The translations under genes were made by a program, and so were the position numbers. A DNA stretch of 64,000 nt from an uncultured Gemmatimonadaceae bacterium. Lineage in GTDB: Bacteria > Gemmatimonadota > Gemmatimonadetes > Gemmatimonadales > GWC2-71-9. Numbering within the stretch: position 1 is the first letter of the stretch; every line of letters starts with the position of its first letter. The stretch is from positions 42 through 64,041 of the forward strand of contig CAZYIV010000009.1 in assembly GCA_964647615.1 (NCBI GenBank), written 5' to 3'. Shown here in pieces: positions 5,311 to 62,252 of this stretch. The notes beneath the pieces are model-generated. The model ran no database searches. It saw nothing but the letters and a program-made list of their open reading frames with translations, and was not told the origin of the DNA.

Positions 5311-5392
5311 TGGGTCCCGTGCGGGGTCGAAACGCGCCGATGGGAGTCATGGTGATGCGAGGTGCAAGGCCGAAGGAAGGTAGGATGGTCGG

Positions 5393-6208: not shown

Positions 6209-6259
6209 CTACCGTCCTTACCGTCCCTACCGTCCTACCGTCTTACCGTCCTACCGTCC
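6209..6259. repeat. Octamer/nonamer microsatellite (Y)YTACCGTC, about 6 units
   Basis: ctaccgtccttaccgtccctaccgtcctaccgtcttaccgtcctaccgtcc. The same run follows the same hairpin at 100-163. It abuts the stop codon of the minus-strand gene ending at 6259. Confidence 0.85.
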
Positions 6260-47240: not shown

Positions 47241-47336
47241 GGCGGGGTAAGATAGGCCCGCCAACCCTGAAGGGGAGCCCCGCCGCCGGCTCGGGGCCCG
47301 GCGCCGCCCCGCACCTGAAGCGCTCTTCATGCGCGA

Positions 47337-48968: not shown

Positions 48969-50915
48969 TCAGCGCGGGCCCGGGACGAGCTCCAGGCGGG
49001 CGGTGCCGGCGCCGGCGGGCCAGCCGAGGCAGGCCGCCTGGCCCTGCCGGGTGTGGTCGAGGTCCTTCTCCGACTTGGCCACCGTCACGATCGGGTAGTC
49101 CCACACCGTCGCCGCCGGCTCGGCGGTGATCTCCATCGGGCCGGCGTAGCTCACCTCCACCGAGAAGGCCCCCTCGGGGCCCACCACGGCGGGGTGCCAG
49201 CGGTACTCCGCCACGAGCCCGCCCCCCTGGCGGAAGCGGTAGGTCTTCTCGAACACCGGCACGCCCGCCTCCACCGCGCGGAAGGTCACCGCCACCTGGC
49301 CGGGGCCGTCGGGGGCGACCTCCATCTGGAGCGGCAGCCCCGCGACGGTCCACGTGGGATCGTAGTCGCCCCGCTCGAACATCCCCCGGTCCAGCTGCAG
49401 GTCGAGGCCGCGCTCGCGCAGCAGCGCGCGCGGTTCGGGGTCCACCGGCGGCAGCTCGTTCCGCCGCATGCTGGGCTCCTGGGTGTCCACGGCGGGGGTG
49501 CCGGTCTCGACGTGGTGGCTCACCCGCGCCCCGCCTTCGGCCGCGGGCTCGTGATAGGCCTCGCGGCGGCGGGTGAGGGTGTTGGCGTAGTTGATCCGGT
49601 AGGGGAAGACGGTGTACTCCTCGATCACCCCGCCGCGCGCCGGGCTCAACAGGGCGGAGAAGGTGGCGTCGTGCAGCCACAGCTCGTCGTGCCCGTCGGC
49701 GTCCAGGTCGAGGACCTCCCAGGCCAGGCCCTCACCGGCCCGCAGCTCTTCCTCCGCGGCGGCCAGCTCGGCCCACAGCGCGTCGCGCAGGTGGGGCAGG
49801 TAGAGCCCGCCGAAGACCCCGTGCCAGTAGGCGTCGTTGCACTGCGCCCGGCCGATCGCGCGCCGCGCGGCGGGCGGGTCGCCGGCGGCCCGGCACAGCC
49901 GGGACAGGGTGCACATCTTCTTGTGCATCCGGTTGGCCTCGGGGTACTTCACCAGGAAGTGGCGCCAGTGGCCGCCCCGGACCAGCGCCCCGTCCGGCCC
50001 GGCGAGGCGCTCCTCGCCCAGCTCCCGCTCCAGCGCATGCAGCCGGCGGGCCGCCGGCGCCGGGAGGGCCCAGCCCTCCATCTCCCGGTAGGAGGCGGTG
50101 GGCAGGTAGGCCAGCCCGCCCGGGGGCACCGCCCGCCGCGCCTCCGCCAGGGTGGTGAGCAGCACCTCGCCGCCGTCGATCAGCGCCGAGAGCGTGGTGA
50201 GGAACTCGTCCAGCCAGCCGCGCTGGTACACCCACTCGTGGGTGCCGGGCCAGCCGCCGAACTTCTCGCCGTCGTCGGCGAAGACCGCGAGCGGCTGCCC
50301 CCGCGCGGCGAGGTTGCGGAGGTGCTCCGCGGTCTCCGCCGGGGGGCGGAAGGGGATCTGGTAGCGCAGCCGCTCGTCGATCGGGAAGAGAGTGAGCCGG
50401 CGGCCGTCGTGTTCCGTCTGCCAGGGGACGTGCAGCTCCTCGCGGCGGAAGCCGGAGGCGAGGAAGTGCCGGTCGTCCACCAGCGCGAAGGTGATCCCGG
50501 CGTCGGCCAGGTCGCCGGCGAGGTCCGGTTCCCACACCCGTTCGGTGAGCCACAGCCCCTCGGCGTTCACCCCGAAGCGATGGGCGATCGCCTCCCGGAG
50601 CCACGCCACCTGCTCCACCCGGTCGGCGCGGGGGAGCGCGGCCAGCACCGGCTCGTACATCCCGGCGGCGAGCAGTTCCACCTTGCCGTCCGTGGCCAGC
50701 CGGCCGAGCCGGTCGAGGTACTCGTGGTCGTGCCGGTCGAGCCACTCCAGCAGCGGGCCCGACAGGTGCAGGGTCACCGGGAGGAAGCCGCGCTCGTCGA
50801 CCTTCTCGAGCAGGGGGCGATAGACGTCGCGCAGGTGCTGCTCGAAGACCGAGTCGAAGTTGCCCACCGGCTGGTGCAGGTGGACGCCGAAGACGAACCG
50901 GATGGGCTGGGGCAT
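48969..50915 (-). CDS. GH57-family alpha-amylase/4-alpha-glucanotransferase-like protein
   Basis: FVFGVHLHQPVGNF, LHLSGPLLEWL, WLTERVWEP. The length is typical of GH57 proteins with DUF1925/1926-type C-terminal regions. Confidence 0.8.
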   Translation of the reverse strand: MPQPIRFVFGVHLHQPVGNFDSVFEQHLRDVYRPLLEKVDERGFLPVTLHLSGPLLEWLDRHDHEYLDRLGRLATDGKVELLAAGMYEPVLAALPRADRVEQVAWLREAIAHRFGVNAEGLWLTERVWEPDLAGDLADAGITFALVDDRHFLASGFRREELHVPWQTEHDGRRLTLFPIDERLRYQIPFRPPAETAEHLRNLAARGQPLAVFADDGEKFGGWPGTHEWVYQRGWLDEFLTTLSALIDGGEVLLTTLAEARRAVPPGGLAYLPTASYREMEGWALPAPAARRLHALERELGEERLAGPDGALVRGGHWRHFLVKYPEANRMHKKMCTLSRLCRAAGDPPAARRAIGRAQCNDAYWHGVFGGLYLPHLRDALWAELAAAEEELRAGEGLAWEVLDLDADGHDELWLHDATFSALLSPARGGVIEEYTVFPYRINYANTLTRRREAYHEPAAEGGARVSHHVETGTPAVDTQEPSMRRNELPPVDPEPRALLRERGLDLQLDRGMFERGDYDPTWTVAGLPLQMEVAPDGPGQVAVTFRAVEAGVPVFEKTYRFRQGGGLVAEYRWHPAVVGPEGAFSVEVSYAGPMEITAEPAATVWDYPIVTVAKSEKDLDHTRQGQAACLGWPAGAGTARLELVPGPR

Positions 50916-50994: not shown

Positions 50995-53280
50995 GTGGAT
51001 GCCGGCCCCGCCCGCCACGCCTCCGCTCCCGCACTCCTCCCCGAGGCCCGCGTGTTCTCCTCCCTTGTGACGCTGCTGGCCATCCCGGCCCTGCTCCATG
51101 CCCCGCCGGTGGCCCGCCCCGCCGCCCCGCCCGACCTCACGGCGGCGCGGGCGCTGGTGGAGCGAGTGGTACCGGGGCGGAGCCGGGACTTCGTCCTCGA
51201 ACCGCTGGCGGCGTCGGACGGGCACGACGCCTTCGAGGTCGAGAGCCGGGGCCGGCAGGTCGTCCTGCGGGGGACCAGCGGGGTGGCGCTGGCCTCGGCG
51301 CTTGACTGGTACCTGGAGCAGGTGGCGCGGGTGCTGGTGGACCTGCCGCTCCGGCCGATCCGGCTCCCGGCGCGGCTGCCGGCCGTCCCGGCGCCGCACC
51401 GCGCCGAGTCGCCGTATGCGCTGCGGTACTTCTTCAACTACTGCACCTTCTCCTACAGCATGGCGTGGTGGGACTGGGCCGACTGGGAGAAGATGATCGA
51501 CTGGATGGCGCTCAAGGGGATCAACATGCCCCTGGCCGCCACCGGGCAGGAGGGCACCTGGCGGCTGGTGCTGCGCGACCTCGGCTTCAGCGACGCGCAG
51601 ATCGGCGACTTCCTGGTGGGGCCGGCCTACCTGCCGTGGGGCTGGATGGGGAATATCGACGGGCTGGGCGGTCCGCTCCCCGCCAGCTGGATCGACGGCC
51701 ACGTGGGGCTGGAGCGGCAGATCCTCGCCCGGGAGCGCGCCCTGGGGATGACCCCGGTGCTCCAGGGCTTCACCGGGCACGTCCCGGCCTCGATCACCGA
51801 GGTCTTCCCTGGCGCCAGGATCCACCAGACCGGCGACTGGTCCGCCGGCTTCTCCGGCACCTGGTTCCTCGACCCGCTCGATCCGCTGTTCCAGCGCATC
51901 GGGCGGCGGTTCATCGAGCGCCAGGCGGAGCTCTACGGGACCGACCACTACTACGCCGCCGACAGCTTCAACGAGATCGACCCGCCCTCGAACGATTCCA
52001 GCTTCCTCGCGGGCATGGGGCAGGCCGTCTACTCGGCGATGCACGCGGCCGACAGCTCCGCCATCTGGGTGCTGCAGGGCTGGTTCCTCTACTACCAGGC
52101 GAAGTTCTGGCAGGAGCCGCAGGCGCGCGCGCTGCTCGGCGCGGTCCCCGACGACCGGATGGTGGTGCTGGACCTCTGGGGGGACCGGCACCCGGTCTGG
52201 GCCCGGCGGCAGGCGTTCTATGGCAAGCCGTGGATCTGGAACGTGCTGTACAACTTCGGCGGCAAGGTCACGCTGAACGGGGACCTGCCGACCATCGCCG
52301 CCAACCTCGACACCATGCTCCGCAGCCCGGCGCACGGGAAGCTGCGCGGTCTCGGCATGATGATGGAGGGCCTCGGCACCAACCCCATCGTGCCCGACTT
52401 CGTGATGGACATGACCTGGCGGCGCGAGGTGCCCGCCCTGGACGCGTGGGCGGCCGATTACGTGACCCGCCGCTACGGCGTCGACGTGCCGGCCGCTCGC
52501 GCCGCCTGGCGCATTCTCCTCGCCACGGCGTACCGGTCCCCGGCGCAGACCGGCACCTTCCTGGCCGAGCGGCCGGGATTCTACCGGCGGGGGGTCGCCT
52601 ACCGGAGCGAGCCCAACCCGCCGTATGACACCCGCCAACTGGCCGTGGCGCTGGACTCGCTGCTCGCGGCCGCCCCCCAGCTGGGGGCGCGGGACGCCTA
52701 CCGCTACGACGTGGTAAACCTGACCCGCCAGCTGCTGGGCCAGCTGGGCCTGCCGCTGGTCGGCGCGGTGGAGGCGGCGGCTGCCGGGCGCGACCCCGCC
52801 GCGCTCCGCACGGCGGAGGCCGCGGTCGAGGGCCTGCTGCAGGACCTGGACGACCTGGTCGGCACCCGGGAGGAGTTCCTGCTCGGGAGGTGGCTGCAGT
52901 CGGCCACGCGCTGGGGCACCACCGGGGAGGAGCGGGCGCTGTACGAGTGGAACGCCCGGAACCTGATCACCCTCTGGGGCCGGAAGTGCACCGAGGGGGA
53001 GAATGACGACCTGAATCTCTACGCCTTCAAGGAGTGGCAGGGGATGTTCCGGGGCTACTTCCTGGCCCGGTGGAAGGCGTTCTTCGCGGCGCTCAACCGG
53101 GCGGTGGCCCGGGGCGAATCCTTCGACCGCGCCCCGGTGGCCGCCGCGTCCTGCGAGTGGGAGCAGGCCTGGTCCATGGGCCATGAGGCATACCGGACCA
53201 CCCCGGTGGGAGACCCAGTCGCCCTCGCGCGGCGGTTCCGGGAGCGGTACCGGGGCGCCATCGACCGGCTGGGCTCCTAG
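50995..53280 (+). CDS. Alpha-N-acetylglucosaminidase (GH89, NAGLU-like), secreted
   Basis: YFFNYCTFSYSMAWWDWADWEKMIDWMALKGINMPLA, GPAYLPWGWMGN, TPVLQGFTGHVP, YAADSFNE, WVLQGW. The start is either GTG 50995 or GTG 51052 (signal peptide VFSSLVTLLAIPALLHA). Confidence 0.85.
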   Translation: MDAGPARHASAPALLPEARVFSSLVTLLAIPALLHAPPVARPAAPPDLTAARALVERVVPGRSRDFVLEPLAASDGHDAFEVESRGRQVVLRGTSGVALASALDWYLEQVARVLVDLPLRPIRLPARLPAVPAPHRAESPYALRYFFNYCTFSYSMAWWDWADWEKMIDWMALKGINMPLAATGQEGTWRLVLRDLGFSDAQIGDFLVGPAYLPWGWMGNIDGLGGPLPASWIDGHVGLERQILARERALGMTPVLQGFTGHVPASITEVFPGARIHQTGDWSAGFSGTWFLDPLDPLFQRIGRRFIERQAELYGTDHYYAADSFNEIDPPSNDSSFLAGMGQAVYSAMHAADSSAIWVLQGWFLYYQAKFWQEPQARALLGAVPDDRMVVLDLWGDRHPVWARRQAFYGKPWIWNVLYNFGGKVTLNGDLPTIAANLDTMLRSPAHGKLRGLGMMMEGLGTNPIVPDFVMDMTWRREVPALDAWAADYVTRRYGVDVPAARAAWRILLATAYRSPAQTGTFLAERPGFYRRGVAYRSEPNPPYDTRQLAVALDSLLAAAPQLGARDAYRYDVVNLTRQLLGQLGLPLVGAVEAAAAGRDPAALRTAEAAVEGLLQDLDDLVGTREEFLLGRWLQSATRWGTTGEERALYEWNARNLITLWGRKCTEGENDDLNLYAFKEWQGMFRGYFLARWKAFFAALNRAVARGESFDRAPVAAASCEWEQAWSMGHEAYRTTPVGDPVALARRFRERYRGAIDRLGS

Positions 53281-53404: not shown

Positions 53405-54124
53405 ATGCACTTCGAGACCGTAGGCTGGCACAGCCCCCTGCTGGGCCGCGAGATGACCCTGCAGGTGATCGGCCATGCCGGCGCCCGCGTCCTCGTGTTC
53501 CCCACCAGCATGGGGACCTGGCGCGAGTGGCCCGACCGCCACATGCACGAGGTCCTGGCCGACCACCTGGAGCAGGGCTGGATCCAGCTCTTCTGCCTCG
53601 ACCAGCCGCACAACGAGAACTGGGGCAACGAGGCCTGCGACGCCGGGCACCGTGCCTGGACCCACCTCCAGTACTATCGCTACGCCGCCGAGGAGGTGCT
53701 GCCGTTCTCCTCGTGGCGCAACCCCAATCCGTTCGTGATCACCACCGGCGCCAGCCTGGGCGCCAGCCACGCCATGGCCTTCGGGCTCAAGTACCCGGAG
53801 GCGGTGCGCCGGATCGTGGGGCTGAGCGGGCTGTACGACCTCACCCGGATGACCGGCGGCCATACCGACGACAACATGTACCAGGTCAACCCGATGCAGT
53901 TCATGGTGCATGAACACGACCCGGGGCGCCTCGAGGCCTTCCGCCGGCAGGACATCATCATCGCGATCGGCCGCGACGACCCGATGTTCCAGAACAACAG
54001 CGACTTCTCCGGCCTGCTGTGGCAGAAGGGGATCGGCAATGCGCTGCGGGTCTGGGACGGCTGGGCCCACGACTGGCCCTACTGGGAACAGATGATCCGG
54101 ATCTACCTCCGGGGACACGACTGA
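53405..54124 (+). CDS. Esterase-family alpha/beta hydrolase
   Basis: VLVFPTSMG and GASLGASHAMAFGLKYPE (GxSxG nucleophile elbow). 239 aa from the ATG at 53405. Confidence 0.65.
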   Translation: MHFETVGWHSPLLGREMTLQVIGHAGARVLVFPTSMGTWREWPDRHMHEVLADHLEQGWIQLFCLDQPHNENWGNEACDAGHRAWTHLQYYRYAAEEVLPFSSWRNPNPFVITTGASLGASHAMAFGLKYPEAVRRIVGLSGLYDLTRMTGGHTDDNMYQVNPMQFMVHEHDPGRLEAFRRQDIIIAIGRDDPMFQNNSDFSGLLWQKGIGNALRVWDGWAHDWPYWEQMIRIYLRGHD

Positions 54125-54173
54125 CCGCCGCCCCCGTGGGCGCGCGCTACCCGAGCCTGGACGACAGACTGCC

Positions 54174-55115
54174 ATGACCAAGCGGGTCGGACTGCTGGTG
54201 GGCCGCGAGTGGAGCTTTCCGCCGGCCTTCATTGACGAGGTGAACCGCCGCCGGGCGGGGGTGACGGCGGAGATGGTCTCCATCGGCGCGGTGGCGATGG
54301 ACCAGCCCTGCCCGTGGGACGTGATCGTGGACCGGATCTCCCACGAGGTTCCGTTCTACCGCACCTACCTCAAGCAGTGCGTGCTGCAGGGGGTGGCGGT
54401 GGTGAACAACCCGTTCATGTGGACCGCGGACGACAAGTTCTTCGGCGCGGCGCTGATCACCGCGAAGGGCGTGGTGAGCCCGAAGACCTGGATCCTGCCC
54501 AACAAGGAGTACATCCCGGGCATCGACCACCGCGAGAGCCTGCGCAACCTGCAGCTGGTGGACTGGGACCGGCTGGTGGCCGAGGTGGGGCTGCCCTGCG
54601 TGCTCAAGGATGCACACGGCGGCGGCTGGCGCGACGTGTACATCTGCCACTCGCGCGAGGACCTGCTCCGCGACTTCGACCAGTCGGGCCAGCTCAACAT
54701 GGTGGTGCAGGAGTTCATCCGGTACCAGCAGTTCGTGCGCTGCCTCTGCATCGGCCAGGAGGAGATCCTAGTGATGGAGTGGGACCCGCGGCGCCGGGCT
54801 TACGGCCAGGACGACGATTTCCTCGCCCCCGAGCTGCGGGCCCGCATCGTCGCCGACTGCCGCACCATCGTGCGGACGCTTGGCTACGACATGAACTCGA
54901 TCGAGTTCGCCGTGCGCGACGGCGTGCCCTACGCCATCGACTTCATGAACCCCGCGCCCGATATGGACATCTACTCCCTCGGCCCGAAGTACTTCGAGTG
55001 GGTGGTGACGCACATGGCGGACCTCGTCATCCGCCGGGCCGGCGAGGGCCGGCGCGCGGTGGACGACCTGGGCTGGGCCCGGCTCTTCGCCGGGAGCCGG
55101 CGGACCGCCTCATGA
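54174..55115 (+). CDS. ATP-grasp enzyme (RimK/glutathione-synthetase-like)
   Basis: LPCVLKDAHGGGWRDVY, MVVQEFI, SIEFAVRDGVPYAIDFMN. 313 aa. Confidence 0.7.
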   Translation: MTKRVGLLVGREWSFPPAFIDEVNRRRAGVTAEMVSIGAVAMDQPCPWDVIVDRISHEVPFYRTYLKQCVLQGVAVVNNPFMWTADDKFFGAALITAKGVVSPKTWILPNKEYIPGIDHRESLRNLQLVDWDRLVAEVGLPCVLKDAHGGGWRDVYICHSREDLLRDFDQSGQLNMVVQEFIRYQQFVRCLCIGQEEILVMEWDPRRRAYGQDDDFLAPELRARIVADCRTIVRTLGYDMNSIEFAVRDGVPYAIDFMNPAPDMDIYSLGPKYFEWVVTHMADLVIRRAGEGRRAVDDLGWARLFAGSRRTAS

Positions 55116-56467
55116 CCGACGCGGTCCGGCACTACCACGACCTGCTGCAGGAGCCGGAGGTCGCCGAGGCGAGCCACGCGATGCTCGAGGACGAGCTGCG
55201 CCGGCGGCACCTGGTCTTCGGGGATCGCGCGCTGTGCACCGTGCTGCGGCCCCGGTTCCTGAGTCCCGGGCAGCATCGCGCCCTGGCGCGCGGCATGCGC
55301 GATCTGCTCGGCGCCTTCGCCACGGCGCACACCGCCGCCATGGCCGACCCGCTCCTCCGGGCCCAGTTCCGCCTGGCCGAGTGGGAGGAGCCGCTGGTGC
55401 TGGCGGACCCGGGATACGAGAGCCCGAGCCCCCACGGGCGGCTCGACTGCTTCGAGGACCCGGCCACCGGGCGGGTGATGCTCACCGAGTACAACGCCGA
55501 GACGCCGGCCGGCGCCGGCTACACCGACCGGCTCACCGAGGCCTTCGCGGCCATCCCGGTGATGCGGCGTTTCCGGCGCCGGTACGACATCCGCCCGCTG
55601 CCCGCCCGCCCCGGGGTGGCGACGGTGCTGCTCGACGCCTGGCGCGAGTTCTCCGGGGGCTGGAGCCGGCCCCGGATCGCGATCGTGGACTGGAACGATG
55701 TGCCCACGACGGCGGAGTTCGAGATCTTCCGCGACTACTTCGGCACGCTCGGGCTGGAGACGGTGATCGTGGACCCCCGGGCCCTGGAGTACCGCGGTGG
55801 GCGGCTCTACGCCGGCGACGGGCCGGTGGACCTGATCTACAAGCGGGTGCTGATCAACGAACTGGTGGAGCGGGGCGGGGTGGACCACCCGATGGTGCGG
55901 GCGGTGCGCGACCGCGCCGTCTGCATGCTGAATCCCTTCCGCTGCAAGCTGCTGCACAAGAAGGCCAGCCTCGCGGTGCTGTCGGACGAGCGCAACGCAC
56001 GGCTCTTCACCGCGGCGCAGCGGCACGTCATTGCGGCCCACATTCCGTGGACCCGCGTGGTCGAAGCACGGCACACCGTCTACCGCGACGAGCGGGTGGA
56101 CCTGCTGCCCTGGCTGGAGGACCAGCAGGCCACCATGGTCCTCAAGCCCAACGACGACTACGGCGGCGCCGGGGTGGTGCTGGGGTGGACGGTCAGCCCG
56201 GCGGAGTGGCGGGCGGCGCTGGCCCGGGCGGTGGAGACGCCGCACATCGTGCAGGAGCGAGTGGGGATTCCCTCCGAACCCTACCCCAGCTGGGCCGATG
56301 GCCGGGTGCACCTGCTCGACCGGATGCTCGACACCGCGCCGTTCGTGCTGCACGGCGCCGCCATGGACGGCTGCCTCACCCGGCTCTCGACCGCGGCCCT
56401 GCTCAACGTGACCGCCGGGGGCGGCAGCACCGTGCCGGTCTTCGTGGTCGAGCCGCGGGACCCCTGA
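55112..56467 (+). CDS. ATP-grasp-related amidoligase-like protein (glutathionylspermidine-synthase / circularly permuted ATP-grasp-like)
   Basis: [75 protein letters not shown]. The ATG overlaps the upstream stop (ATGA). Confidence 0.55.
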
Positions 56468-56516
56468 GCGGGGCCGGCCCCGGCCGGCCCCCGTCACCCT
56501 CATCCCCGAGTCGTGG

Positions 56517-57623
56517 ATGAAAGCGCCCAGCCTGACGCTTGGAGTGGAGGAGGAGTACCAGATCGTGGACCCGGTCAGCCGGGAGCTGCGGTCGTACATC
56601 ACCGAGATCCTCAAGGAGGACTCGGTGGTGCTGGGCGAGGTGAAGCCGGAGCTGCACCAGTCCATGGTCGAGGTGGGCACCCGGGTCTGCCACCACCCCG
56701 CCGAGGTGCGGAGCGAACTGGTCCGGCTGCGGCGGCTGGTGATGGAGCTGGCGGGGAAGCAGGGGCTGCAGGTGATCGCCGCGGGGAGCCACCCCTTCTC
56801 CTCCTGGCTGGAGCAGCAGATCACCCCGCTCGACCGCTACCTCGGGGTGCGGGAGGACCTGCAGGAGCTGGCCCAGCGGCTGCTGATCTTCGGGACCCAC
56901 GTGCACATCGGGATCGAGGACCGGGAGTTCCTGATCGACGCCATGAACACGGTGCGCTACCTGCTGCCCCACGTGCTGGCGCTCTCCACCAGTTCCCCCT
57001 TCTGGATGGGCCGGGCCACCGGGCTCAAGAGCTACCGCAGCATCGTGTTCCGCGACTTTCCCCGGACCGGCATCCCGCGGACGCTGCAGTCCTGGTCGGA
57101 GTTCGAGGGGCTGGTGAACACGATGGTCGCCACCAACTGCATCCCCAACGCCTCCAAGATCTGGTGGGACGTCCGGCCCAGCTGGAGCTATCCCACCCTC
57201 GAGTTCCGGATCTGCGACGTCTGCACCCGGGTGGACGAGGCGGTCTGCATCGCGGCGATCTTCCAGGCGATCATCGCCAAGCTGTGGAAGCTCCGGCGCG
57301 ACAACCTGACCTTCCGGCTCTATCCGGCGGCGCTGATCGAGGAGAACAAGTGGCGGGCGATCCGCTACGGACTCGACGGCCGGCTGATCGACTTCGGCAA
57401 GAGTCAGGAGCAACCGGCCCGGGAGCTGATCCGGGAGCTGATCGAGTGGTTCATCGCCGACGTGGTGGACGAACTGGGGACCCGGAAGGAGGTGGAGTAC
57501 GCCTTCCGGATCCTGGAGGAGGGCACCAGCGCCGACCGGCAGATCGAGACCTTCCGCCGCACCGGCGACATGAAGGCGGTGGTGGACCACCTGGTCCGGG
57601 AGACCGCCGACGGGGTGATCTGA
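56517..57623 (+). CDS. Carboxylate-amine ligase, glutamate-cysteine ligase family 2 (YbdK/GCS2-type)
   Basis: [46 protein letters not shown]...PTLEFRICD. Confidence 0.88.
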
Positions 57624-57747
57624 GGGCCACCCGAAGGGCCCCGGCCGGGAACTTCTGGGGGGCTGGCGCGGTTGTTGCCCTAGTGTGAAGGGATCGAGCG
57701 ACCGCCTTCATCATGCACTTCGGGACCGGAAACGATACTTTCCCCGT

Positions 57748-58527
57748 ATGCCACAGCTCCCCGAGCGGCCCGTTATCGGGCTGACCACCCAGACCCTGCA
57801 CTCGATTGACGGGATCCCTGCCGGGCTGCCCGAGTCCTGGGTGATGAACCAGCGCTACTTCCTCGCCGCCACCTCGGTGGGGGCGGTCCCGTGGATGATC
57901 CCGCTGCTGGACGATGACGAGGCCACGCTCTACGAGATCTACCGCCGGCTGGACGGGATCCTGATCCCGGGCGGCGTGGACATGGACCCCGCGACCTTCG
58001 GGGAGGAGCGGCACCCCAAGTGCGGCGCCGTGGACCCGGCCCGGGACCGGGTGGAGCTGCAGTTGACCCGCTGGGCGATCGAGGACCGCAAGCCGGTCCT
58101 GGGGCTCTGCCGGGGCATCCAGGTGATCAACGTGGCGATGGGCGGCACCCTGTACCAGGACATCGCCGAGCAGGTGCCCGAGGCCATCAAGCACGACTAC
58201 TTCCCGACCGCCGGGTTCGAGCGGGACCACCTGGCCCACGAGGTGACCCTCGCCCACGGCAGCCGGCTGCGCACCGTGATGGAGCGGCCCACCCTGACGG
58301 TCAACAGCATGCACCACCAGGCGATCAAGCGCCTGGCCACGGGGCTGGTCTCCAGCGCCACGGCGCCGGACGGGCTGATCGAGGCGGTGGAACTGCCGTC
58401 GGATCACTTCATGGTGGGCGTGCAGTGGCATCCCGAGGTCTTCGAGCTGACCGACCCGCACACCCGGCACCTGTTCCATGAGTTCATCGCCGCCGCGCAG
58501 GGCTGGCGGCGGGCGCACCTGGGCTGA
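57748..58527 (+). CDS. Class I glutamine amidotransferase-like gamma-glutamyl hydrolase (peptidase C26, PuuD-like)
   Basis: GILIPGGVDMDP, PVLGLCRGIQVINVAMGGTLYQDI (nucleophile Cys), NSMHHQAI, VGVQWHPE. Confidence 0.85.
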   Translation: MPQLPERPVIGLTTQTLHSIDGIPAGLPESWVMNQRYFLAATSVGAVPWMIPLLDDDEATLYEIYRRLDGILIPGGVDMDPATFGEERHPKCGAVDPARDRVELQLTRWAIEDRKPVLGLCRGIQVINVAMGGTLYQDIAEQVPEAIKHDYFPTAGFERDHLAHEVTLAHGSRLRTVMERPTLTVNSMHHQAIKRLATGLVSSATAPDGLIEAVELPSDHFMVGVQWHPEVFELTDPHTRHLFHEFIAAAQGWRRAHLG

Positions 58528-58530
58528 TCC

Positions 58531-60540
58531 TCAGCCGGTGACGAATCCGAGGCGGTAGGCGAGGGGCGCGAGGGCGCCGTCGCCTGCCGCCTCCTGCTGC
58601 CAGACCCGGTAGAACGCCGACTGCACGTCGAAGGGCACCGCCTGGTCGAGGTGCTCCAGCAGGGTCAGCAGGTCCCGCACGGCGGCGAGCGCCGCCTCCC
58701 CCCGGTCCTCCGCCAGTCCCCGTACCCGCCGGAGCAGCGCCTGCCGCAGCAGCGGGCGGAGCTCCTCGCCGGCATCGAGCGCGGCCCGTTCCTCGGGGGC
58801 CAGCAGCCGGGCCAGCGCTTCGCCCCGGACGGCGGTGGCGAGGGCGGTGCGCTGGCGCTCGGGCAGGTCGCCCAGGGAGAGCGTCGCCTGGGGACCGTCG
58901 GGCCGCACCCGGATGCGGACCTGCACCTCGAGCCCGGTGTGGCGCACCTCGGCCGCGAGCGGGTAGGCCCGGCCCGAGTGCCGGTCGGTGAGGGTGAGCT
59001 CGGGATCGGCGCCCTCCAGCGACCAGGCGGGGCTCCACGCGGCCGCCGGTGCCAGGTGGCGCGCCGCGATCAGGCCGGCGCCGATGCGGAGCGGGGGGAA
59101 GAGGTGGGGCCGGGCCCGGTGGTAGTAGATCTCCCGCCCGCTCCCGAGGGTGCGGGCGTTGCTCTCCGCTCCCGCCAGCCGGGTGGCGAATCCCTCCTCG
59201 AGGGCGGCCCCCTCCGCGCCCGCCAGGACCGCCACCCGTGCGGCGTAGCGCAGGACCTGCACCGCCTCCAGTCCGGCGATGTCGTCGAAGAACCAGGCGC
59301 AGCTGGTGAGCGTCCGCAGCGCCCCGCGCTCCAGCTCCAGCAGCTCGGCCGCGCGCACCTGGGCGTCGTGGTCCAGCCCGGGGCGCAGCGCGTCGAGGGC
59401 GTAGGCCCGGGTGGCGTCGGGACCACCGCCCAGCGCCCCGCCGTAGCCGGCGAGGGCGGCGGCGGCGTCGGTGAACAGGGCCGGCGCCTCACGGTCGTAG
59501 CGCAGGTGCACCTGGGTGGTCAGCCAGCGCACCGCCTCGCGCAGCGGGGCCCGCCAGCGCTGGTGGGTGGGCGGGTCGTGCGACATGCGGCAGCCGCAGT
59601 CGCTGCGCCACCGCTCGACGCCGTGGCTGCAGCTCCAGGCGCTGGGCGCCACCAACCTGGTCTCGTGGTGCGCCCCCTCGCGCGCCAGGAAGCTGGCGAA
59701 GTTCTCCACCGTGACGCCGGTCCGGGTCCGCACCCGCTCGAGCATGGCGGCCAGGGCCATCTCGCCGAAGCGATGGTGGTGGCCGTAGGTCTCCCCGTCG
59801 GTGGCCACGGAGACCAGCGCCGGCGGGGTGCCCTCGGGCCGCACCGCCAGCATGCGCGCGCTCCAGGCCTCGCCATCCCGCACCAGCGGCCCGAAGGCCA
59901 CGTCGTGCGAGATCGGTCCGTCATAGACGAACACGGCGATGCTGCGCCCTCCCGCGGTCCGCACCAGGCCGGGGAGCCCTCCGGGAGGGGCCGCGTCCAC
60001 CTGGGTCGGCGCCAGGATGGTGAACCGGATCCCCGCCTGCGCCAGCACGTCCAGCGTCTCCTCGTCCACCGCCGTCTCGGGGAGCCACATCCCCGCCGGC
60101 TCGCGGCCGAAGCGGCGCCGGAAGTCCGCGATGCCCCAGCGGACCTCGGTGACCTTTTCGCGCCGGGAGGAGAGCGGCAGGATGGCGTGGTGGTAGGGCA
60201 TCGCCACCGCGTTGCCGTGACCGAGGCGGGCGGCACTGGCACGGTCCGCCGCGAGCAGCAGCTGGTAGGTGTCGGGGGCGGCGTGCTCCAGCCATTCGAG
60301 CAGCGTGGGACCGACGTTGAAGCTCAGCCACTCATACAGGTTGACGATGCGGGCGATCCGCCCGCCCGCGCCGGGCAGCCGCGCCGCGCCGACGGTGCGG
60401 TAGCACTCCTGCTCGATGCGATCGTTCCAGTCGTGCGCCGGGGCGGCGGTGGGGTCGGCCACGACCTCGTCCAGCCACGGGTCCTCCCGCGGCGGCTGGT
60501 AGAAGTGGCCGTGGACGACGATGGAGCGGGCGGGGGTCAC
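58531..60540 (-). CDS. GH57-family protein (DUF3536-type C-terminal region)
   Basis: VVHGHFYQPPREDPW, YEWLSFNVGPTLLEWL, MPYHHAILPL, GMWLPETAV, TDGETYGHHH. The GTG at 60540 overlaps the upstream stop (GTGA). The upstream part of track ORF 58531-61824 runs out of frame through the next GH57 gene. Confidence 0.8.
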   Translation of the reverse strand: MTPARSIVVHGHFYQPPREDPWLDEVVADPTAAPAHDWNDRIEQECYRTVGAARLPGAGGRIARIVNLYEWLSFNVGPTLLEWLEHAAPDTYQLLLAADRASAARLGHGNAVAMPYHHAILPLSSRREKVTEVRWGIADFRRRFGREPAGMWLPETAVDEETLDVLAQAGIRFTILAPTQVDAAPPGGLPGLVRTAGGRSIAVFVYDGPISHDVAFGPLVRDGEAWSARMLAVRPEGTPPALVSVATDGETYGHHHRFGEMALAAMLERVRTRTGVTVENFASFLAREGAHHETRLVAPSAWSCSHGVERWRSDCGCRMSHDPPTHQRWRAPLREAVRWLTTQVHLRYDREAPALFTDAAAALAGYGGALGGGPDATRAYALDALRPGLDHDAQVRAAELLELERGALRTLTSCAWFFDDIAGLEAVQVLRYAARVAVLAGAEGAALEEGFATRLAGAESNARTLGSGREIYYHRARPHLFPPLRIGAGLIAARHLAPAAAWSPAWSLEGADPELTLTDRHSGRAYPLAAEVRHTGLEVQVRIRVRPDGPQATLSLGDLPERQRTALATAVRGEALARLLAPEERAALDAGEELRPLLRQALLRRVRGLAEDRGEAALAAVRDLLTLLEHLDQAVPFDVQSAFYRVWQQEAAGDGALAPLAYRLGFVTG

Positions 60541-62252
60541 GCGGAGGCTTGGCCCGCCAGCACCCGGGCGACGGTATCGAGCACATCGGGGAAGACGTGG
60601 TCCCGGCGCCACTGCTCCGCGGCGAGCGCCTGGGCGGCGGGGCCGCCCGCCGTGCCCTGTTCCAGCGCGTCGAGGAACGCCTCGGCGTCGGCGCAATGCT
60701 CGGTGAAGCGCTTGATGGCGTAGTCGGTCACCGCGCCGGTGGAGATGATGAACTGCCAGTCGCTGCTCATGGCGAGCAGCATCGCCCGCGCGGCCTGGGC
60801 CAGCACCGGGCGGCTGGCCTCGTCCCGGAGGCCGGCGGGCGCCGCGGCCCAGAACCGCTCCTCGAGGCGCCACAGCCGCGGCCAGGTCCAGGCGGTCTCG
60901 TTGTTGAGCCACATGCTGAAGTCGCCGTTGGCGCCCCAGCTGCCGGTGGTCAGGTGGATCGCCCGCTCGCTGGTGCCGCGTTCCAGGTGCCCGCTCGCGG
61001 TCACCGGGCGGACCGCCGGGTACCCCCGCACCGCGCGGTAGACCTGGGCGAGGAACTCCACCCCCTCGAACCACCAGTGGCCGAACAGCTCGGTATCGAA
61101 CGGTACCGCCACCAGGTCCTCGGCCGCGCGCTTCCCGGGGCGCTCGCTCAGCTGGCCCAGCAGCGACGCGAAGTGCCGCCCGTGGGCGCCCGCCCGCTCC
61201 ACGGCGCGATCGGGATGGTACGACTCCTTGGCGCCCAGGTCGGAGCCGGGGGCGCTCACCCGCCAGTACCGGAGCCCGCCGGGCCAGCGGATCTTGTGGA
61301 ACTCGAGGTACCACTCGTCGCCGGGGTAGCCCTCCTGCCGGCTCCAGACCTGGCGGCTCGCCACCGGGTCCCGGGCGAAGGCGTGCACCGTCGTGGGGCC
61401 GGCGGTGCCGGCCACGCGGTAGGCCTCGTAGGGGGTGTTGGGTGTCGCCGCCTCGGCCGCGGCGCGGGCGGCACGGCGCTGGGCTGCGTCGGCCAGCTTC
61501 CCCTCCACCTCCATGCGCCACTCGCCCCAGTCGGCCCCGTAGAACCGGAAGGCCTGGCCGGCGGCGGCCAGGTGGCTGTCCACGAAGAAGTAGCGGAACC
61601 CCGCCTCTTCCACGTGCACCTCGATCCCGGAGCGCACCCGCGGGTTGGGTGCCTCGGGGAGCGGCGCCCAGTGGCCCTCCGGCCGGTAGGCGCACTCGGG
61701 GAGCCACAGCCCCGCCGGCGCCCGGCCGAAGATGCGGCGGTGTTCGGCGTGCCCGAGGAGCAGCTGCAGCCGGATGCTCTCGTCCCGGGCCAGCAGCGGC
61801 AGGAAGCCGTGGGTGGCCCCGCACGAGATCAGTTCGATGCGCCCCGCCTCCGCGTGGCGGCGGAAGGCCCGGGCCAGGTTGCGCTCCTCGGCGCGAAACC
61901 GGTGCCGCAGGCCGAGCAGGTGCGCCTTCCAGAAGTCGGCGAGCGGGATCAGGTGCGCGTCGCCGGTCTCGGTGAGGGAGGCGGCCGCCTCCTCGCAGGC
62001 CTCCAGCCGCTGGGTGAAGTAGGCCTCCAGCTCGGCCCCGAAGTCGGGGCTCTCCAGCTGGTTGGCCAGGATCGGGGTGATCCCGATGGTGAGCGGCGCC
62101 GCCACCTCCTCCGTCGCGAGGCGCTCCAGCGCGTCGAGCAGCGGCAGGTAGGTGTCGATCGCCGCCTCGCAGATCCAGTCGCTGCCGTGGGGCCAGCGTC
62201 CGTGATTGAGGACGTAGGGCAGGTGGCTGTGCAGCGCGAGCACGAAGTCCAT
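60537..62252 (-). CDS. GH57-family 1,4-alpha-glucan branching enzyme-like protein
   Basis: FVLALHSHLPYV, ELISCGATHGFLPLL, GLWLPECAY, PFDTELFGHWWFEG. Confidence 0.8.
   Translation of the reverse strand: MDFVLALHSHLPYVLNHGRWPHGSDWICEAAIDTYLPLLDALERLATEEVAAPLTIGITPILANQLESPDFGAELEAYFTQRLEACEEAAASLTETGDAHLIPLADFWKAHLLGLRHRFRAEERNLARAFRRHAEAGRIELISCGATHGFLPLLARDESIRLQLLLGHAEHRRIFGRAPAGLWLPECAYRPEGHWAPLPEAPNPRVRSGIEVHVEEAGFRYFFVDSHLAAAGQAFRFYGADWGEWRMEVEGKLADAAQRRAARAAAEAATPNTPYEAYRVAGTAGPTTVHAFARDPVASRQVWSRQEGYPGDEWYLEFHKIRWPGGLRYWRVSAPGSDLGAKESYHPDRAVERAGAHGRHFASLLGQLSERPGKRAAEDLVAVPFDTELFGHWWFEGVEFLAQVYRAVRGYPAVRPVTASGHLERGTSERAIHLTTGSWGANGDFSMWLNNETAWTWPRLWRLEERFWAAAPAGLRDEASRPVLAQAARAMLLAMSSDWQFIISTGAVTDYAIKRFTEHCADAEAFLDALEQGTAGGPAAQALAAEQWRRDHVFPDVLDTVARVLAGQASA

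What the first reader, a model, noticed from the sequence alone, without database searches (positions are those of the whole stretch)
53405..58527. Five-gene amidoligase cluster: esterase, two ATP-grasp-type ligases, a GCS2 carboxylate-amine ligase and a gamma-glutamyl hydrolase
Five co-directional genes with short gaps and one ATGA overlap (55112) encode:
- an alpha/beta-hydrolase esterase (GASLGAS)
- a RimK/GshB-like ATP-grasp enzyme
- a 451-aa glutathionylspermidine-synthase-like or permuted ATP-grasp-like protein
- a YbdK/GCS2 ligase ([10 protein letters not shown] ... TLEFRICD)
- a peptidase-C26 class I amidotransferase-like hydrolase (LCRGIQVIN, HHQ, WHPE)

Three different ATP-dependent amide-bond-forming enzymes sit beside two hydrolases. 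That is the logic of ribosome-independent synthesis of a small gamma-glutamyl or peptide-type metabolite. It is also the logic of transient gamma-glutamyl protection followed by removal, as in the Puu pathway and ergothioneine biosynthesis. The product is not predictable from sequence.

Comparative-genomics work on amidoligases has predicted such neighbourhoods to make novel metabolites or peptide tags. As far as I know, none with this composition has been characterised. The agmatine/putrescine genes 7-10 kb upstream offer a candidate amine substrate pool.
Basis: partly seen in the sequence, partly recalled or inferred. Interest (0 to 1): 0.65.

Follow-up and report, generated by a model that had tools for sequence, protein, structure and literature searches.

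The report
Conserved multi-ligase small-peptide operon, uncharacterised
Five neighbouring genes in a Gemmatimonadales genome encode three different ATP-driven bond-forming enzymes and two hydrolases; the block is conserved across several soil-bacterial phyla and most likely builds and recycles a small, still unidentified gamma-glutamyl-type peptide, a gene set already flagged by comparative genomics but never tested.

Summary
Window 53405-58527 carries five co-directional genes, each with GC3 of 0.95-0.96:
- G1: an esterase-family serine hydrolase.
- G2: an unclassified classical ATP-grasp ligase.
- G3: a circularly permuted, glutathione-synthetase-fold ATP-grasp ligase.
- G4: a YbdK/GCS2 carboxylate-amine ligase.
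- G5: a peptidase-C26 amidase.

Catalytic residues are conserved in all five. The block keeps its order in Gemmatimonadota and Acidobacteriota. Chloroflexota and Armatimonadota carry variants. At least 579 species genomes hold a G3 relative.

The stable core is G1-G2-G3, usually with G4. G5, a second esterase, extra L-amino-acid-ligase-type ATP-grasps and S9/M20/M24 peptidases come and go. No exporter, regulator, precursor peptide, carrier protein or riboswitch travels with the block.

No protein reaches the curated cut-off of any named enzyme (GshA, PuuD, RimK, LysX).

Best reading: stepwise, ribosome-independent assembly and turnover of a cytoplasmic short gamma-glutamyl peptide or pseudopeptide.

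The polyamine link is only local synteny.

From my memory, the neighbourhood type was catalogued in silico by Iyer et al. 2009 and in the Pfam PF14403 text. I found no experimental work.

Verdict: new member of a known, predicted kind, of moderate interest.

The parts
53405..54124 (+). G1: esterase-family alpha/beta serine hydrolase, 239 aa
   Evidence: Pfam Esterase PF00756, 28.4 bits against a gathering score of 22. The closest solved relatives are the S. aureus 'esterase family protein' entries 7l0a and 6vh9, E about 5e-5. The nucleophile elbow G115-A-S117-L-G119 and H222 are conserved in at least 97% of 54 sequences (window G1 plus orthologs). G1 lies just upstream of G2 in 44/46 Gemmatimonadota and 6/7 Chloroflexota loci.
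54174..55115 (+). G2: classical ATP-grasp ligase of an unnamed family, 313 aa
   Evidence: No Pfam family in G2 or in any of its 120 listed homologs. NCBIfam rimK_fam gives E 4.6e-11, 42.6 bits against a cut-off of 143. The AF2 model has pLDDT 70.9. Its Foldseek matches are D-Ala-D-Ala ligases, RimK and ArgX, at E 1e-12 to 1e-9 and TM about 0.55. K145, the G149-G-G151 loop, Q179-E180, E244 and D256/N259 are conserved in 68 sequences. Its stop overlaps the G3 start in ATGA. G2 is present in 51/51 Gemmatimonadota and 10/11 Chloroflexota loci.
55112..56467 (+). G3: circularly permuted ATP-grasp ligase with a glutathione-synthetase/GspS-like fold, 451 aa; the hub gene of the neighbourhood
   Evidence: Pfam CP_ATPgrasp_2, E 2.2e-6, 27.3 bits, covering 78-373 of 374 profile positions. 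PF14403 is precomputed for many homologs. The AF2 model has pLDDT 72.2. Its best Foldseek matches are human glutathione synthetase 2hgs (E 1e-9, TM 0.54), homoglutathione synthetase, E. coli GspS, ligase Cp1B and YgiC/YjfC. The profile hits PDB 3n6x 'putative glutathionylspermidine synthase' at E 1.4e-7. R110-x-D112, E126-x-N128 and the K345/G351-G352 loop are invariant in 81 sequences.
56517..57623 (+). G4: YbdK/GCS2-family carboxylate-amine ligase, 368 aa
   Evidence: Pfam GCS2, 195 bits. NF010039 (PRK13515) equivalog 'carboxylate-amine ligase', 523 bits against a cut-off of 371. All models named glutamate--cysteine ligase score below their cut-offs. E. coli YbdK 1r8g matches at E 5e-46. All 15 cluster-linked orthologs tested, drawn from at least four phyla, match NF010039 best. 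G4 is the most conserved gene of the block, 67-90% identity.
57748..58527 (+). G5: peptidase-C26 / class-I amidotransferase-like gamma-glutamyl amidase, 259 aa (the ORF is open from the GTG at 57685)
   Evidence: Pfam Peptidase_C26, 211 bits. The PuuD equivalog NF008471 gives 123.9 bits against a cut-off of 266. PDB matches are Lin1909 3fij (6e-41), PuuD 6vtv (5.5e-32) and 7d4r 'probable glutamine amidotransferase'. The C121/H228/E230 triad is conserved in 52 sequences. G5 lies downstream of G4 in 42/43 Gemmatimonadota loci, and upstream of G1 in two Chloroflexota loci.

Best explanation
The block is a self-contained operon for ribosome-independent, ATP-dependent assembly and turnover of a short cytoplasmic peptide or pseudopeptide that contains a gamma-glutamyl link.

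Inferred order of events:
1. The GCS2 ligase G4 activates a carboxylate as an acyl-phosphate, by family precedent the gamma-carboxyl of glutamate. It couples this to an amino acid or amine.
2. The glutathione-synthetase-fold permuted ATP-grasp G3 extends the free C-terminal carboxylate with a further amino acid or amine. This is what glutathione synthetase, GspS and Cp1B do.
3. The classical ATP-grasp G2 adds another residue, or makes the acceptor dipeptide, in the manner of Ddl, RimK or LysX.
4. The C26 amidase G5 removes or recycles the gamma-glutamyl group.
5. The serine hydrolase G1, and in many relatives a second esterase, cleaves the remaining amide, ester or thioester bond.

Shown here:
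- The folds and families of the five proteins.
- Intact catalytic residues in all five.
- Conserved linkage of the genes.

Inferred:
- The substrates.
- The order of the steps.
- That the product is a free small molecule.
For: **Family and fold assignments**

**Catalytic residues**
- Catalytic and ATP/Mg residues are conserved in at least 97% of 52-81 sequences (window protein plus orthologs) for every gene.
- The invariant R110-x-D112...E126-x-N128 of G3 parallels R139/D141/E163/N165 of Cp1B. Those four residues surround the adenosine-binding site of Cp1B, and alanine substitution of each abolished or strongly reduced activity (PMC12568646).

**Operon-like anatomy**
- ATGA overlap, gaps of 49-124 nt, and no terminator-like site inside the block.

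**Conserved linkage**
- Gemmatimonadota: G1 44/46, G2 51/51, G4 49/50, G5 42/43.
- Both Acidobacteriota loci are complete.
- Chloroflexota: G1 6/7, G2 10/11, G4 6/12.
- At least 579 species genomes hold a G3 relative.

**Accessory genes point to peptide chemistry**
- Extra L-amino-acid-ligase-type ATP-grasps (weak DdaF/BacD-like hits) in L045, L050, L077, L049 and L062.
- S9 peptidases next to G3 in L045, L053 and L068.
- M20/M24/M28 peptidases near G3-G4 in L040 and L081.

**Fusions and distant relatives**
- An open reading frame runs from a G3-like into a GCS2 domain (P0411).
- An AMP-binding domain is fused to a G3-like domain (P0498).
- Distant G3 relatives in cultured Bacillus and Streptomyces sit in multi-ligase operons with efflux pumps.

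**Absences that fit a free cytoplasmic product**
- No conserved small ORF within 1.5 kb of the outermost cluster genes, which argues against a RiPP precursor or a LysW-type carrier.
- No exporter or regulator is conserved with the block.

**Literature**
- Linked ATP-grasp and COOH-NH2 ligases are stated to catalyse successive peptide ligations (PMC4431377).
Against: - No substrate is identified, and no protein reaches the curated cut-off of a named enzyme.
- The structure models are of only moderate confidence (pLDDT 71-72). Fold matches have TM about 0.5 and 10-17% identity.
- G4 and G5 are missing from about half or more of the Chloroflexota loci. The gamma-glutamyl step therefore cannot be essential to whatever the G1-G2-G3 core does.
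- Two esterase-family genes fit an ester or thioester product at least as well as a peptide.
- Co-transcription was not tested.
- Gemmatimonadetes and Acidobacteria are predicted bacillithiol users (PMC6282198). A role as the main redox thiol is therefore not required.
Confidence: 0.5

Rival explanations
1. Tail-building on a cofactor or other pre-existing metabolite. The ligases add a short alpha/gamma-oligoglutamate (or similar) tail to an acceptor made elsewhere in the genome, as happens with F420, folate, tetrahydrosarcinapterin, methanofuran and methylofuran. The C26 enzyme trims the tail, as gamma-glutamyl hydrolase does for folylpolyglutamate.
For: - The best NCBIfam hit of G2 is the RimK family of alpha-L-glutamate ligases.
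- G4 belongs to the glutamate-activating GCS2 family.
- G5 belongs to the gamma-glutamyl hydrolase family C26.
- Two sequential ATP-grasp ligases, MyfA and MyfB, build the polyglutamate chain of methylofuran (PMC8141765).
- The absence of an exporter fits an intracellular cofactor.
Against: - No cofactor-biosynthesis gene is conserved next to the block in any of the loci inspected.
- The rimK_fam score is far below its cut-off, 42.6 against 143.4.
- The accessory genes are general peptidases and L-amino-acid-ligase-type enzymes, not cofactor enzymes.
Confidence: 0.15
2. A transient gamma-glutamyl protection or activation pathway, Puu-like or BesA-like. G4 gamma-glutamylates an amine or amino acid so that G2 and G3 can modify it. 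G5 then removes the gamma-glutamyl group. The end product carries no glutamate.
For: - G5 is closest among characterised enzymes to PuuD and to a Pseudomonas amidotransferase-like hydrolase.
- G4 and G5 are adjacent in Gemmatimonadota and Acidobacteriota.
- A BesA-like gamma-glutamyl-dipeptide ligase homolog lies 4.4 kb upstream at 47337-48953. It is kept nearby in close relatives.
Against: - The block holds no oxidase, dehydrogenase or other tailoring enzyme, only ligases and hydrolases.
- G5 scores below the PuuD equivalog cut-off.
- The G1-G2-G3 core persists without G4 and G5 in Chloroflexota.
- The polyamine genes are only local synteny.
Confidence: 0.1
3. Peptide tagging of a protein. 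One or more of the ligases add residues to a protein C-terminus or side chain, as in RimK on S6, LysX/ArgX on LysW, or PafA-type ligation. The hydrolases would act as de-modifying enzymes.
For: - RimK and ArgX are among the structural matches of G2.
- By established knowledge, not tested here, the GCS2/glutamine-synthetase fold is also that of PafA and Dop.
- Iyer et al. 2009 proposed peptide tags for some amidoligase neighbourhoods (title cited).
Against: - No conserved small ORF or candidate target gene lies within 1.5 kb of the outermost cluster genes in 80 loci.
- The nearest characterised structural relatives of G3 act on small molecules: glutathione synthetase, homoglutathione synthetase, GspS and Cp1B.
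- The distant relatives inspected in Bacillus and Streptomyces sit in operons that include efflux pumps.
Confidence: 0.07
4. Ester chemistry linked to carbohydrate metabolism. One ATP-grasp makes a carboxylate-hydroxyl (ester) bond to a sugar or polyol, as the Mycobacterium tuberculosis ATP-grasp Rv1722 makes GABA-trehalose. The esterase-family proteins would reverse the reaction.
For: - One or two PF00756 esterase genes always accompany G2-G3.
- An ATP-grasp forming an ester between GABA and trehalose has been shown (bioRxiv 10.64898/2026.04.15.718621).
- In the window and its closest relatives the block lies between GH57, NAGLU and glycogen genes.
Against: - The carbohydrate genes flank the block only in the closest Gemmatimonadales and differ even among those.
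- Homology of G2 or G3 to Rv1722 could not be tested, because no Rv1722 sequence was at hand.
- PF00756-type hydrolases also cleave thioesters and amides.
Confidence: 0.07

Closest known systems
RoseRS_2616-type circularly permuted ATP-grasp neighbourhoods (Pfam CP_ATPgrasp_2, PF14403; Iyer, Abhiman, Burroughs & Aravind 2009, Mol Biosyst 5:1636)
   Same: - G3 matches PF14403 over nearly the whole profile.
- As I recall the Pfam text, which I could not read here, the family is defined by linkage to a GCS2-like COOH-NH2 ligase, an alpha/beta-hydrolase, an amidohydrolase and an M20 peptidase, and is predicted to make small peptides.
- That linkage is what searches show.
   Different: - The window protein scores 27.3 bits, under the gathering score of 32.
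- The amidohydrolase here is a class-I (C26) enzyme.
- The partner ATP-grasp G2 has no Pfam family.
- The 2009 work is a prediction only, with no product or activity known.
- The paper is not in the library, so this comparison rests partly on memory.
Glutathione and glutathionylspermidine synthesis (gamma-glutamylcysteine ligase, glutathione synthetase, GspS/amidase)
   Same: - A GCS2-family ligase sits next to a glutathione-synthetase-fold ligase.
- Successive acyl-phosphate ligations are followed by a dedicated amidase.
- G3-G4 is kept as a pair even where G1 and G2 are absent (L040, L081).
   Different: - G4 is below the cut-off of every glutamate--cysteine ligase model.
- G3 shares only 10-17% identity with glutathione synthetase and GspS.
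- A third ligase and one or two esterases are present.
- The hydrolase is C26, not a CHAP amidase.
- No evidence points to cysteine or any thiol.
Puu pathway of E. coli (PuuA gamma-glutamylation, PuuD hydrolysis)
   Same: - An ATP-dependent glutamate-type ligase is paired with a C26 gamma-glutamyl amidase.
- PuuD is the closest characterised homolog of G5.
   Different: - PuuA is a glutamine-synthetase-type enzyme, not GCS2.
- No oxidase or dehydrogenase is present.
- Two further ligases are present.
- G5 is below the PuuD equivalog cut-off.
Fungal E-64 pathway (ATP-grasp Cp1B followed by amide-bond synthetase Cp1D; PMC12568646)
   Same: - Stand-alone ligases act in succession to build acid-amino acid-amine pseudopeptides without an NRPS.
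- Cp1B (9cjn) is a structural match of G3, and the R-x-D...E-x-N motif is shared.
   Different: - The setting is eukaryotic secondary metabolism with an oxygenase-made warhead.
- Foldseek reports only about 15% identity between G3 and Cp1B, and I ran no sequence search between them.
- The product there is exported and bioactive, whereas this block has no exporter.
RimK / LysX-ArgX / MyfA-MyfB glutamate and amino-acid ligases
   Same: - G2 has the classical ATP-grasp fold, and RimK and ArgX are among its best structural matches.
- Its best NCBIfam family is rimK_fam.
   Different: - G2 is far below the cut-offs: 42.6 against 143.4 for rimK_fam, and 22.2 against 275.6 for LysX.
- No S6, LysW or cofactor partner is linked.

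Membership tests
Pfam CP_ATPgrasp_2 (PF14403), for G3 | Profile score at or above the gathering score of 32 bits | tested here: inconclusive
   The window G3 scores 27.3 bits, E 2.2e-6, over profile positions 78-373 of 374. Relatives found with the G3 profile do pass: P0389 48.9 bits and P0440 35.2 bits. Many close homologs carry a precomputed PF14403 hit.
Pfam CP_ATPgrasp_2 (PF14403), for G3 | Circularly permuted ATP-grasp (glutathione-synthetase/GspS-like) fold with acyl-phosphate and Mg residues | tested here: met
   The best Foldseek matches are 2hgs, 3kal, 3o98, 9cjn and 7uk8. The profile hits 3n6x at E 1.4e-7. R110, D112, E126, N128, K345 and G351-G352 are invariant.
Pfam CP_ATPgrasp_2 (PF14403), for G3 | Gene neighbourhood with a GCS2 ligase, an alpha/beta-hydrolase, an amidohydrolase and M20-type peptidases (family description recalled from memory) | tested here: met
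   GCS2, esterase and C26 genes are linked. M20/M24/M28 peptidases lie near G3-G4 in L040 and L081.
YbdK/GCS2 carboxylate-amine ligases (PF04107; NCBIfam NF010039), for G4 | Scores above the Pfam gathering score and above the NF010039 equivalog cut-off | tested here: met
   GCS2 195 bits against 21. NF010039 523.5 bits against 371. All 15 cluster-linked orthologs match NF010039 best.
Bona fide glutamate--cysteine ligase (GshA-type equivalogs NF010043/42/44/45, TIGR02048), for G4 | Score above the curated equivalog cut-off | tested here: not met
   350.7 against 409, 253.8 against 427, 243 against 437, 182.2 against 395, and 71.6 against 249. Enzymatic specificity cannot be tested with these tools.
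Peptidase C26 / PuuD gamma-glutamyl amidases, for G5 | C26 profile match and a Cys-His-Glu triad | tested here: met
   Peptidase_C26 211 bits. C121, H228 and E230 are conserved in 52 sequences.
Peptidase C26 / PuuD gamma-glutamyl amidases, for G5 | PuuD equivalog (NF008471) cut-off of 266 bits | tested here: not met
   123.9 bits. G5 belongs to the family but is not a PuuD ortholog.
RimK / LysX ATP-grasp ligases, for G2 | Score above the TIGR00768 (143.4) or TIGR02144 (275.6) cut-off | tested here: not met
   42.6 and 22.2 bits. G2 shares only the fold.
Putative esterase family (PF00756), for G1 | Profile score above the gathering score, plus a GxSxG nucleophile and a catalytic His | tested here: met
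   28.4 bits against 22. G115-A-S117-L-G119 and H222 are conserved. The acidic residue of the triad was not assigned.
Puu-type gamma-glutamylation catabolic pathway | Presence of an oxidase and a dehydrogenase (PuuB/PuuC-like) acting on the gamma-glutamylated intermediate | tested here: not met
   The block holds only ligases and hydrolases, as do the conserved neighbours.
Graspetide/RiPP or LysW-carrier systems | A linked small precursor or carrier gene | tested here: not met
   No small intergenic ORF (25-95 aa) is shared by more than 5 of 80 loci. Those that are shared are local-synteny artefacts. The gaps inside the window block are at most 124 nt.
Anti-phage defence systems (PADLOC) | Any match to a defence protein model | tested here: not met
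   No hit for any of the five proteins at E up to 0.001.

The most novel reading that the evidence does not exclude
The operon makes a metabolite that has not yet been described. It would be a short gamma-glutamyl peptide or pseudopeptide serving as a standard cytoplasmic constituent of Gemmatimonadota, many Acidobacteriota and Chloroflexota, for example a new low-molecular-weight thiol, stress solute or cofactor tail. G2 and G3 would then be the founding members of two enzyme families with new substrate specificities.
Probability: 0.3. Interest if true: 0.7.

Novelty: new member of a known kind. Interest (0 to 1): 0.45.

Why it matters
Three unrelated ATP-dependent ligase types are kept together with their own hydrolases in hundreds of species of abundant but poorly studied soil phyla. 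Every member I inspected is annotated 'hypothetical protein' or with a generic family name.

If the product is a common cytoplasmic metabolite, this would be a missing piece of core metabolism in those phyla, in redox buffering, stress protection or cofactor decoration.

Identifying the product would also do three things:
- Give the first biochemical function to a member of Pfam PF14403.
- Give the first function to the unnamed G2 family.
- Give a physiological partner to a YbdK-type ligase. As far as I know, the real role of that family has been unclear since the E. coli protein was first studied.

The ligases could also serve as stand-alone biocatalysts for forming amide bonds.

Against this, the neighbourhood type was already predicted by comparative genomics. 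The sequence alone adds no surprise beyond confirming how widespread and how modular the block is.

Tried and rejected
- **Iyer et al. 2009.** The paper (PMC3268129, PMID 20023723) is not in the library. Its identity was confirmed only through a reference list.
- **Literature searches.** I searched RoseRS_2616, CP_ATPgrasp_2, PF14403, 'circularly permuted ATP-grasp', and combinations of YbdK/C26/ATP-grasp and of Gemmatimonad/ligase. None turned up an experimental study of this cluster.
- **Roseiflexus link.** I queried with a Chloroflexia G3 to recover the Roseiflexus prototype. The best 120 hits were all MAG proteins with no Roseiflexus entry, so the link to RoseRS_2616 could not be shown directly.
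- **Riboswitch or leader upstream.** The only Rfam match is a sub-threshold chance hit to a human lncRNA family. The 130-nt leader folds no better than its shuffles, z = 0.01.
- **Promoter and terminator scan.** Nothing found, so it is uninformative in this 72% GC genome.
- **Defence system.** Rejected.
- **RiPP precursor or LysW carrier.** Rejected, because no conserved small ORF exists.
- **Polyamine link.** The agmatine deiminase (43586-44680, - strand) and the CN-hydrolase (46353 to about 47300, - strand) are real. They are separated from the block by a cytochrome c peroxidase, a BesA-like ligase, a GH57 enzyme and a NAGLU gene. The intervening genes differ between close relatives. I therefore treat the link as local synteny.
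- **Glycogen link.** GH57, glycogen synthase and phosphorylase genes flank the block only in the nearest Gemmatimonadales.
- **Sequence search of G3 against PDB.** It gave nothing. Only the profile search and the fold search were informative.

Full report
**Observation**

The window is 69-75% G+C. Its closest protein relatives come from Gemmatimonadales MAGs. Five + strand ORFs occupy 53405-58527:

| Gene | Coordinates | Length |
|---|---|---|
| G1 | 53405-54124 | 239 aa |
| G2 | 54174-55115 | 313 aa |
| G3 | 55112-56467 | 451 aa |
| G4 | 56517-57623 | 368 aa |
| G5 | 57748-58527 | 259 aa |

- The G5 ORF is open from the GTG at 57685. The ATG at 57748 is the likely start, because ortholog conservation begins there.
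- The G2 stop and the G3 start overlap in ATGA. The other gaps are 49, 49 and 124 nt.
- Third-position G+C is 0.95-0.96 in all five frames. Each ORF has hundreds of full-length homologs. They are real genes, and the long opposite-strand ORFs listed are shadows.

**What the proteins are**

*G1*
- It passes the Pfam Esterase family threshold, 28.4 bits against 22.
- Its nearest solved relatives are staphylococcal esterase-family proteins.
- The G-A-S117-L-G elbow and H222 are conserved.

*G2*
- It has no Pfam family, and neither do any of its 120 listed homologs.
- It shows weak sequence similarity to RimK-family ligases and biotin-carboxylase-type ATP-grasps.
- A moderate-confidence model (pLDDT 70.9) superposes on D-Ala-D-Ala ligases, RimK and ArgX.
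- The ATP-grasp lysine, glycine loop and Mg ligands are conserved.

*G3*
- It matches Pfam CP_ATPgrasp_2 over almost the whole profile but scores 27.3 bits, just under the gathering score of 32.
- A sequence search against PDB finds nothing. A profile of 16 orthologs reaches 3n6x, a 'putative glutathionylspermidine synthase', at E 1.4e-7.
- Its model (pLDDT 72.2) matches, in order, human glutathione synthetase, soybean homoglutathione synthetase, E. coli glutathionylspermidine synthetase, the fungal ligase Cp1B and E. coli YgiC/YjfC.
- The invariant R110-x-D112 and E126-x-N128 parallel R139/D141/E163/N165 of Cp1B. Those four residues surround the adenosine-binding site of Cp1B, and alanine substitution of each abolished or strongly reduced activity (PMC12568646).

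*G4*
- It is a clear YbdK/GCS2 ligase: 195 bits in Pfam, and E 5e-46 to E. coli YbdK.
- It passes the NCBIfam equivalog NF010039, which NCBI names only 'carboxylate-amine ligase'. It fails every model named glutamate--cysteine ligase.
- All 15 cluster-linked orthologs tested, drawn from at least four phyla, behave the same way.

*G5*
- It is a peptidase-C26 amidase with the Cys-His-Glu triad.
- It is related to PuuD but scores below the PuuD equivalog cut-off.

**Conservation**

A scan of one genome per species with two conserved G3 peptides found more than 579 species with a relative. The best 80 loci come from Gemmatimonadota, Acidobacteriota, Chloroflexota, Armatimonadota and unclassified bacteria. 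Only loci with enough flanking DNA were counted:

| Phylum | G1 | G2 | G4 | G5 (downstream) |
|---|---|---|---|---|
| Gemmatimonadota | 44/46 | 51/51 | 49/50 | 42/43 |
| Chloroflexota | 6/7 | 10/11 | 6/12 | 0/10 |

- Both Acidobacteriota loci are complete.
- Two Chloroflexota loci have a C26 gene upstream of G1 instead.
- L040 and the Armatimonadota locus L081 clearly carry only G3-G4; three further loci (L025, L069, L079) show only G3-G4 but have too little upstream sequence to rule out G1-G2.
- G4 is the most conserved gene, at 67-90% identity to the window protein. G3 is 56-82% identical.
- An exhaustive profile search finds 4,920 clusters at 50% identity with E up to 0.001, and 1,049 with E up to 1e-30.

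The five-gene block is one architecture of a modular system whose hub is G3.

**Accessory genes**

- A second, better-scoring PF00756 esterase lies just upstream of G1 in most of 29 of the 80 loci (displaced or on the opposite strand in a few). The Acidobacteriota six-gene operon of L082 is one example. The window has no copy.
- Further ATP-grasp genes of the L-amino-acid-ligase type, with weak hits to dapdiamide synthase DdaF and alanine-anticapsin ligase BacD, follow G3 or G4 in L045, L050 and L077. Two lie in tandem upstream in L049 and L062.
- S9 peptidases abut G3 in L045, L053 and L068.
- M20, M24, M28 and BAAT-type hydrolases lie near the G3-G4 pairs of L040 and L081.
- One short-contig protein reads through from a G3-like into a GCS2 domain. 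Another fuses an AMP-binding domain to a G3-like domain.
- Distant G3 relatives (22-30% identity) on plasmids of cultured bacteria lie in multi-ligase operons with efflux pumps. In Bacillus thuringiensis the operon is an AMP-binding protein, two G3-like genes and a MATE pump. In Streptomyces it is two ATP-grasps, an MFS pump and a G3-like gene.

**What is absent**

- No conserved small ORF lies within 1.5 kb of the outermost cluster genes.
- No exporter or regulator is conserved with it.
- There is no riboswitch or structured leader.
- There is no match to defence-system models.

**Mechanism**

The evidence supports a set of active, functionally coupled amide-bond ligases and hydrolases that work on small substrates inside the cell.

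- The most economical scheme follows family precedent. G4 makes a gamma-glutamyl-X compound. G3 extends a C-terminal carboxylate, as glutathione synthetase and GspS do. G2 contributes a further ligation. G5 removes the gamma-glutamyl group. G1 cleaves the remaining bond.
- The literature on these superfamilies states that linked ATP-grasp and COOH-NH2 ligases catalyse successive peptide ligations (PMC4431377, citing Iyer et al. 2009).
- The folds, the intact active sites and the linkage are shown here. The substrates, the order of steps and the nature of the product are inferred. I put this general model at 0.5.
- Because G1-G2-G3 persists without G4 and G5 in many Chloroflexota, the gamma-glutamyl step is probably an add-on rather than the heart of the chemistry.

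**Rivals**

1. *Oligoglutamate-type tail on a cofactor, 0.15.* The precedent is MyfA/MyfB in methylofuran synthesis (PMC8141765). Against it, no cofactor genes are linked.
2. *Transient gamma-glutamyl protection as in the Puu or Bes pathways, 0.1.* The resemblance of G5 to PuuD fits. So does a BesA-like ligase 4.4 kb upstream. Against it, there are no tailoring enzymes.
3. *Protein tagging, 0.07.* No target or carrier gene is linked.
4. *Ester formation on a sugar, 0.07.* The esterases and the newly reported GABA-trehalose synthetase Rv1722 prompt this idea. The carbohydrate genes flank the block only in the closest relatives.

A role as the main redox thiol is possible but not needed. Gemmatimonadetes and Acidobacteria are predicted bacillithiol producers (PMC6282198).

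**Polyamine idea**

- The agmatine deiminase and the N-carbamoylputrescine-amidase-like genes are real.
- They lie on the other strand, 6-10 kb away and behind four unrelated genes.
- The intervening genes differ even between close relatives.
- This is local synteny, not evidence for an amine substrate.

**Novelty**

- As I recall the Pfam text for PF14403, it rests on Iyer et al. 2009. It defines the family by this kind of neighbourhood and predicts small-peptide synthesis. I could not read the paper here.
- Seven literature searches found no experimental work.
- Every database name I saw for G2 and G3 relatives is 'hypothetical protein' or a generic family label.
- The finding is therefore a well-supported new member of an already predicted but uncharacterised kind of system. 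It is of moderate interest.
- A cultured host is available for testing: Roseisolibacter sp. H3M3-2, locus L049.

Noticed in passing
window 47337-48953 (+): A fourth ATP-dependent ligase lies 4.4 kb upstream of G1. It is a 538-aa ATP-grasp with Pfam PGM1_C and ATP-grasp_IQCH. Its best NCBIfam hit is BesA, the L-propargylglycine--L-glutamate ligase, at 170 bits against a cut-off of 750. It keeps the same relative position in the close relatives L001, L013, L014, L016, L085 and L086. It may work with the cluster, or it may simply be a neighbour.
   Followed up: partly
window 43586-44680 (-) and 46353 to about 47300 (-): These genes are an agmatine deiminase (PAD_porph, 410 bits) and a CN_hydrolase (N-carbamoylputrescine-amidase-like, 215 bits). 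A di-haem cytochrome c peroxidase lies between them at 45018-46304 (+). The 859-aa ORF listed at 46353-48932 is an over-extension across the opposite-strand ligase gene.
   Followed up: partly
window 48969-50915 (-), 50995-53280 (+), 58531 to about 60600 (-), 60537-62252 (-): The cluster is embedded in alpha-glucan genes. They include a GH57 amylase/4-alpha-glucanotransferase-type gene, a complete alpha-N-acetylglucosaminidase (NAGLU, 456 bits), a GH57/DUF3536 gene and a GH57 branching enzyme. In L085 and L086 these continue into glycogen synthase and glucan phosphorylase genes. The gene between the upstream genes and G1 differs between relatives: NAGLU in the window, a BTAD regulator in L086, and a 222-aa hypothetical in L085.
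   Followed up: partly
L082 7580-8266 and 28 further loci (for example L037 3152-3988, L068 4050-4925): A second esterase gene (PF00756, E 1.2e-31 in L068) sits directly upstream of G1, or between G1 and G2, in 29 of 80 related loci. This makes a six-gene operon. The window has no copy.
   Followed up: yes
L003/L004/L006/L008 G4-G5 gaps; L006 G1-G2 gap; L001 G1-G2 and G3-G4 gaps; window 88-163 and 6209-6261: In related Gemmatimonadales the intergenic gaps inside the cluster hold arrays of 7-8-nt tandem repeats. In most cases the arrays are in inverted orientation around a core, for example (AGTTCCG)n ... core ... (CGGAACT)n. In the L001 G1-G2 gap the two arrays are not complementary. The G4-G5 core is conserved between several loci. 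The window's own cluster gaps lack these arrays. Similar octamer arrays, (CCGTCCTA)n and (CTACCGTC)n, occur elsewhere in the window. They look like a family of small intergenic repeat elements.
   Followed up: partly
window 4972-6122: Several tandem arrays with periods of 36-46 nt occur here. One is a 46-nt unit repeated 2.5 times at 100% identity at 5170-5286. Another is a 43-nt unit repeated 4.2 times at 5942-6122. They are unrelated to the finding.
   Followed up: no
L085 11422-12529 (also L005 and L008): In some long-read MAGs the GCS2 gene is called as two pieces of 233 and 150 aa, or gives a truncated tblastn hit. This is most likely an indel error in the assembly rather than a true pseudogene.
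   Followed up: no
L087 (B. thuringiensis plasmid NZ_CP017574.1, 14561-19838) and L088 (Streptomyces plasmid NZ_CP109501.1): Distant G3 relatives in cultured bacteria form compact operons that look like secondary metabolism. In B. thuringiensis the operon is an AMP-binding protein, two tandem 'glutathionylspermidine synthase family' genes and a MATE exporter, and it lies next to a cyclodipeptide synthase/P450 pair. In Streptomyces it is two ATP-grasps, an MFS transporter and a G3-like gene.
   Followed up: partly
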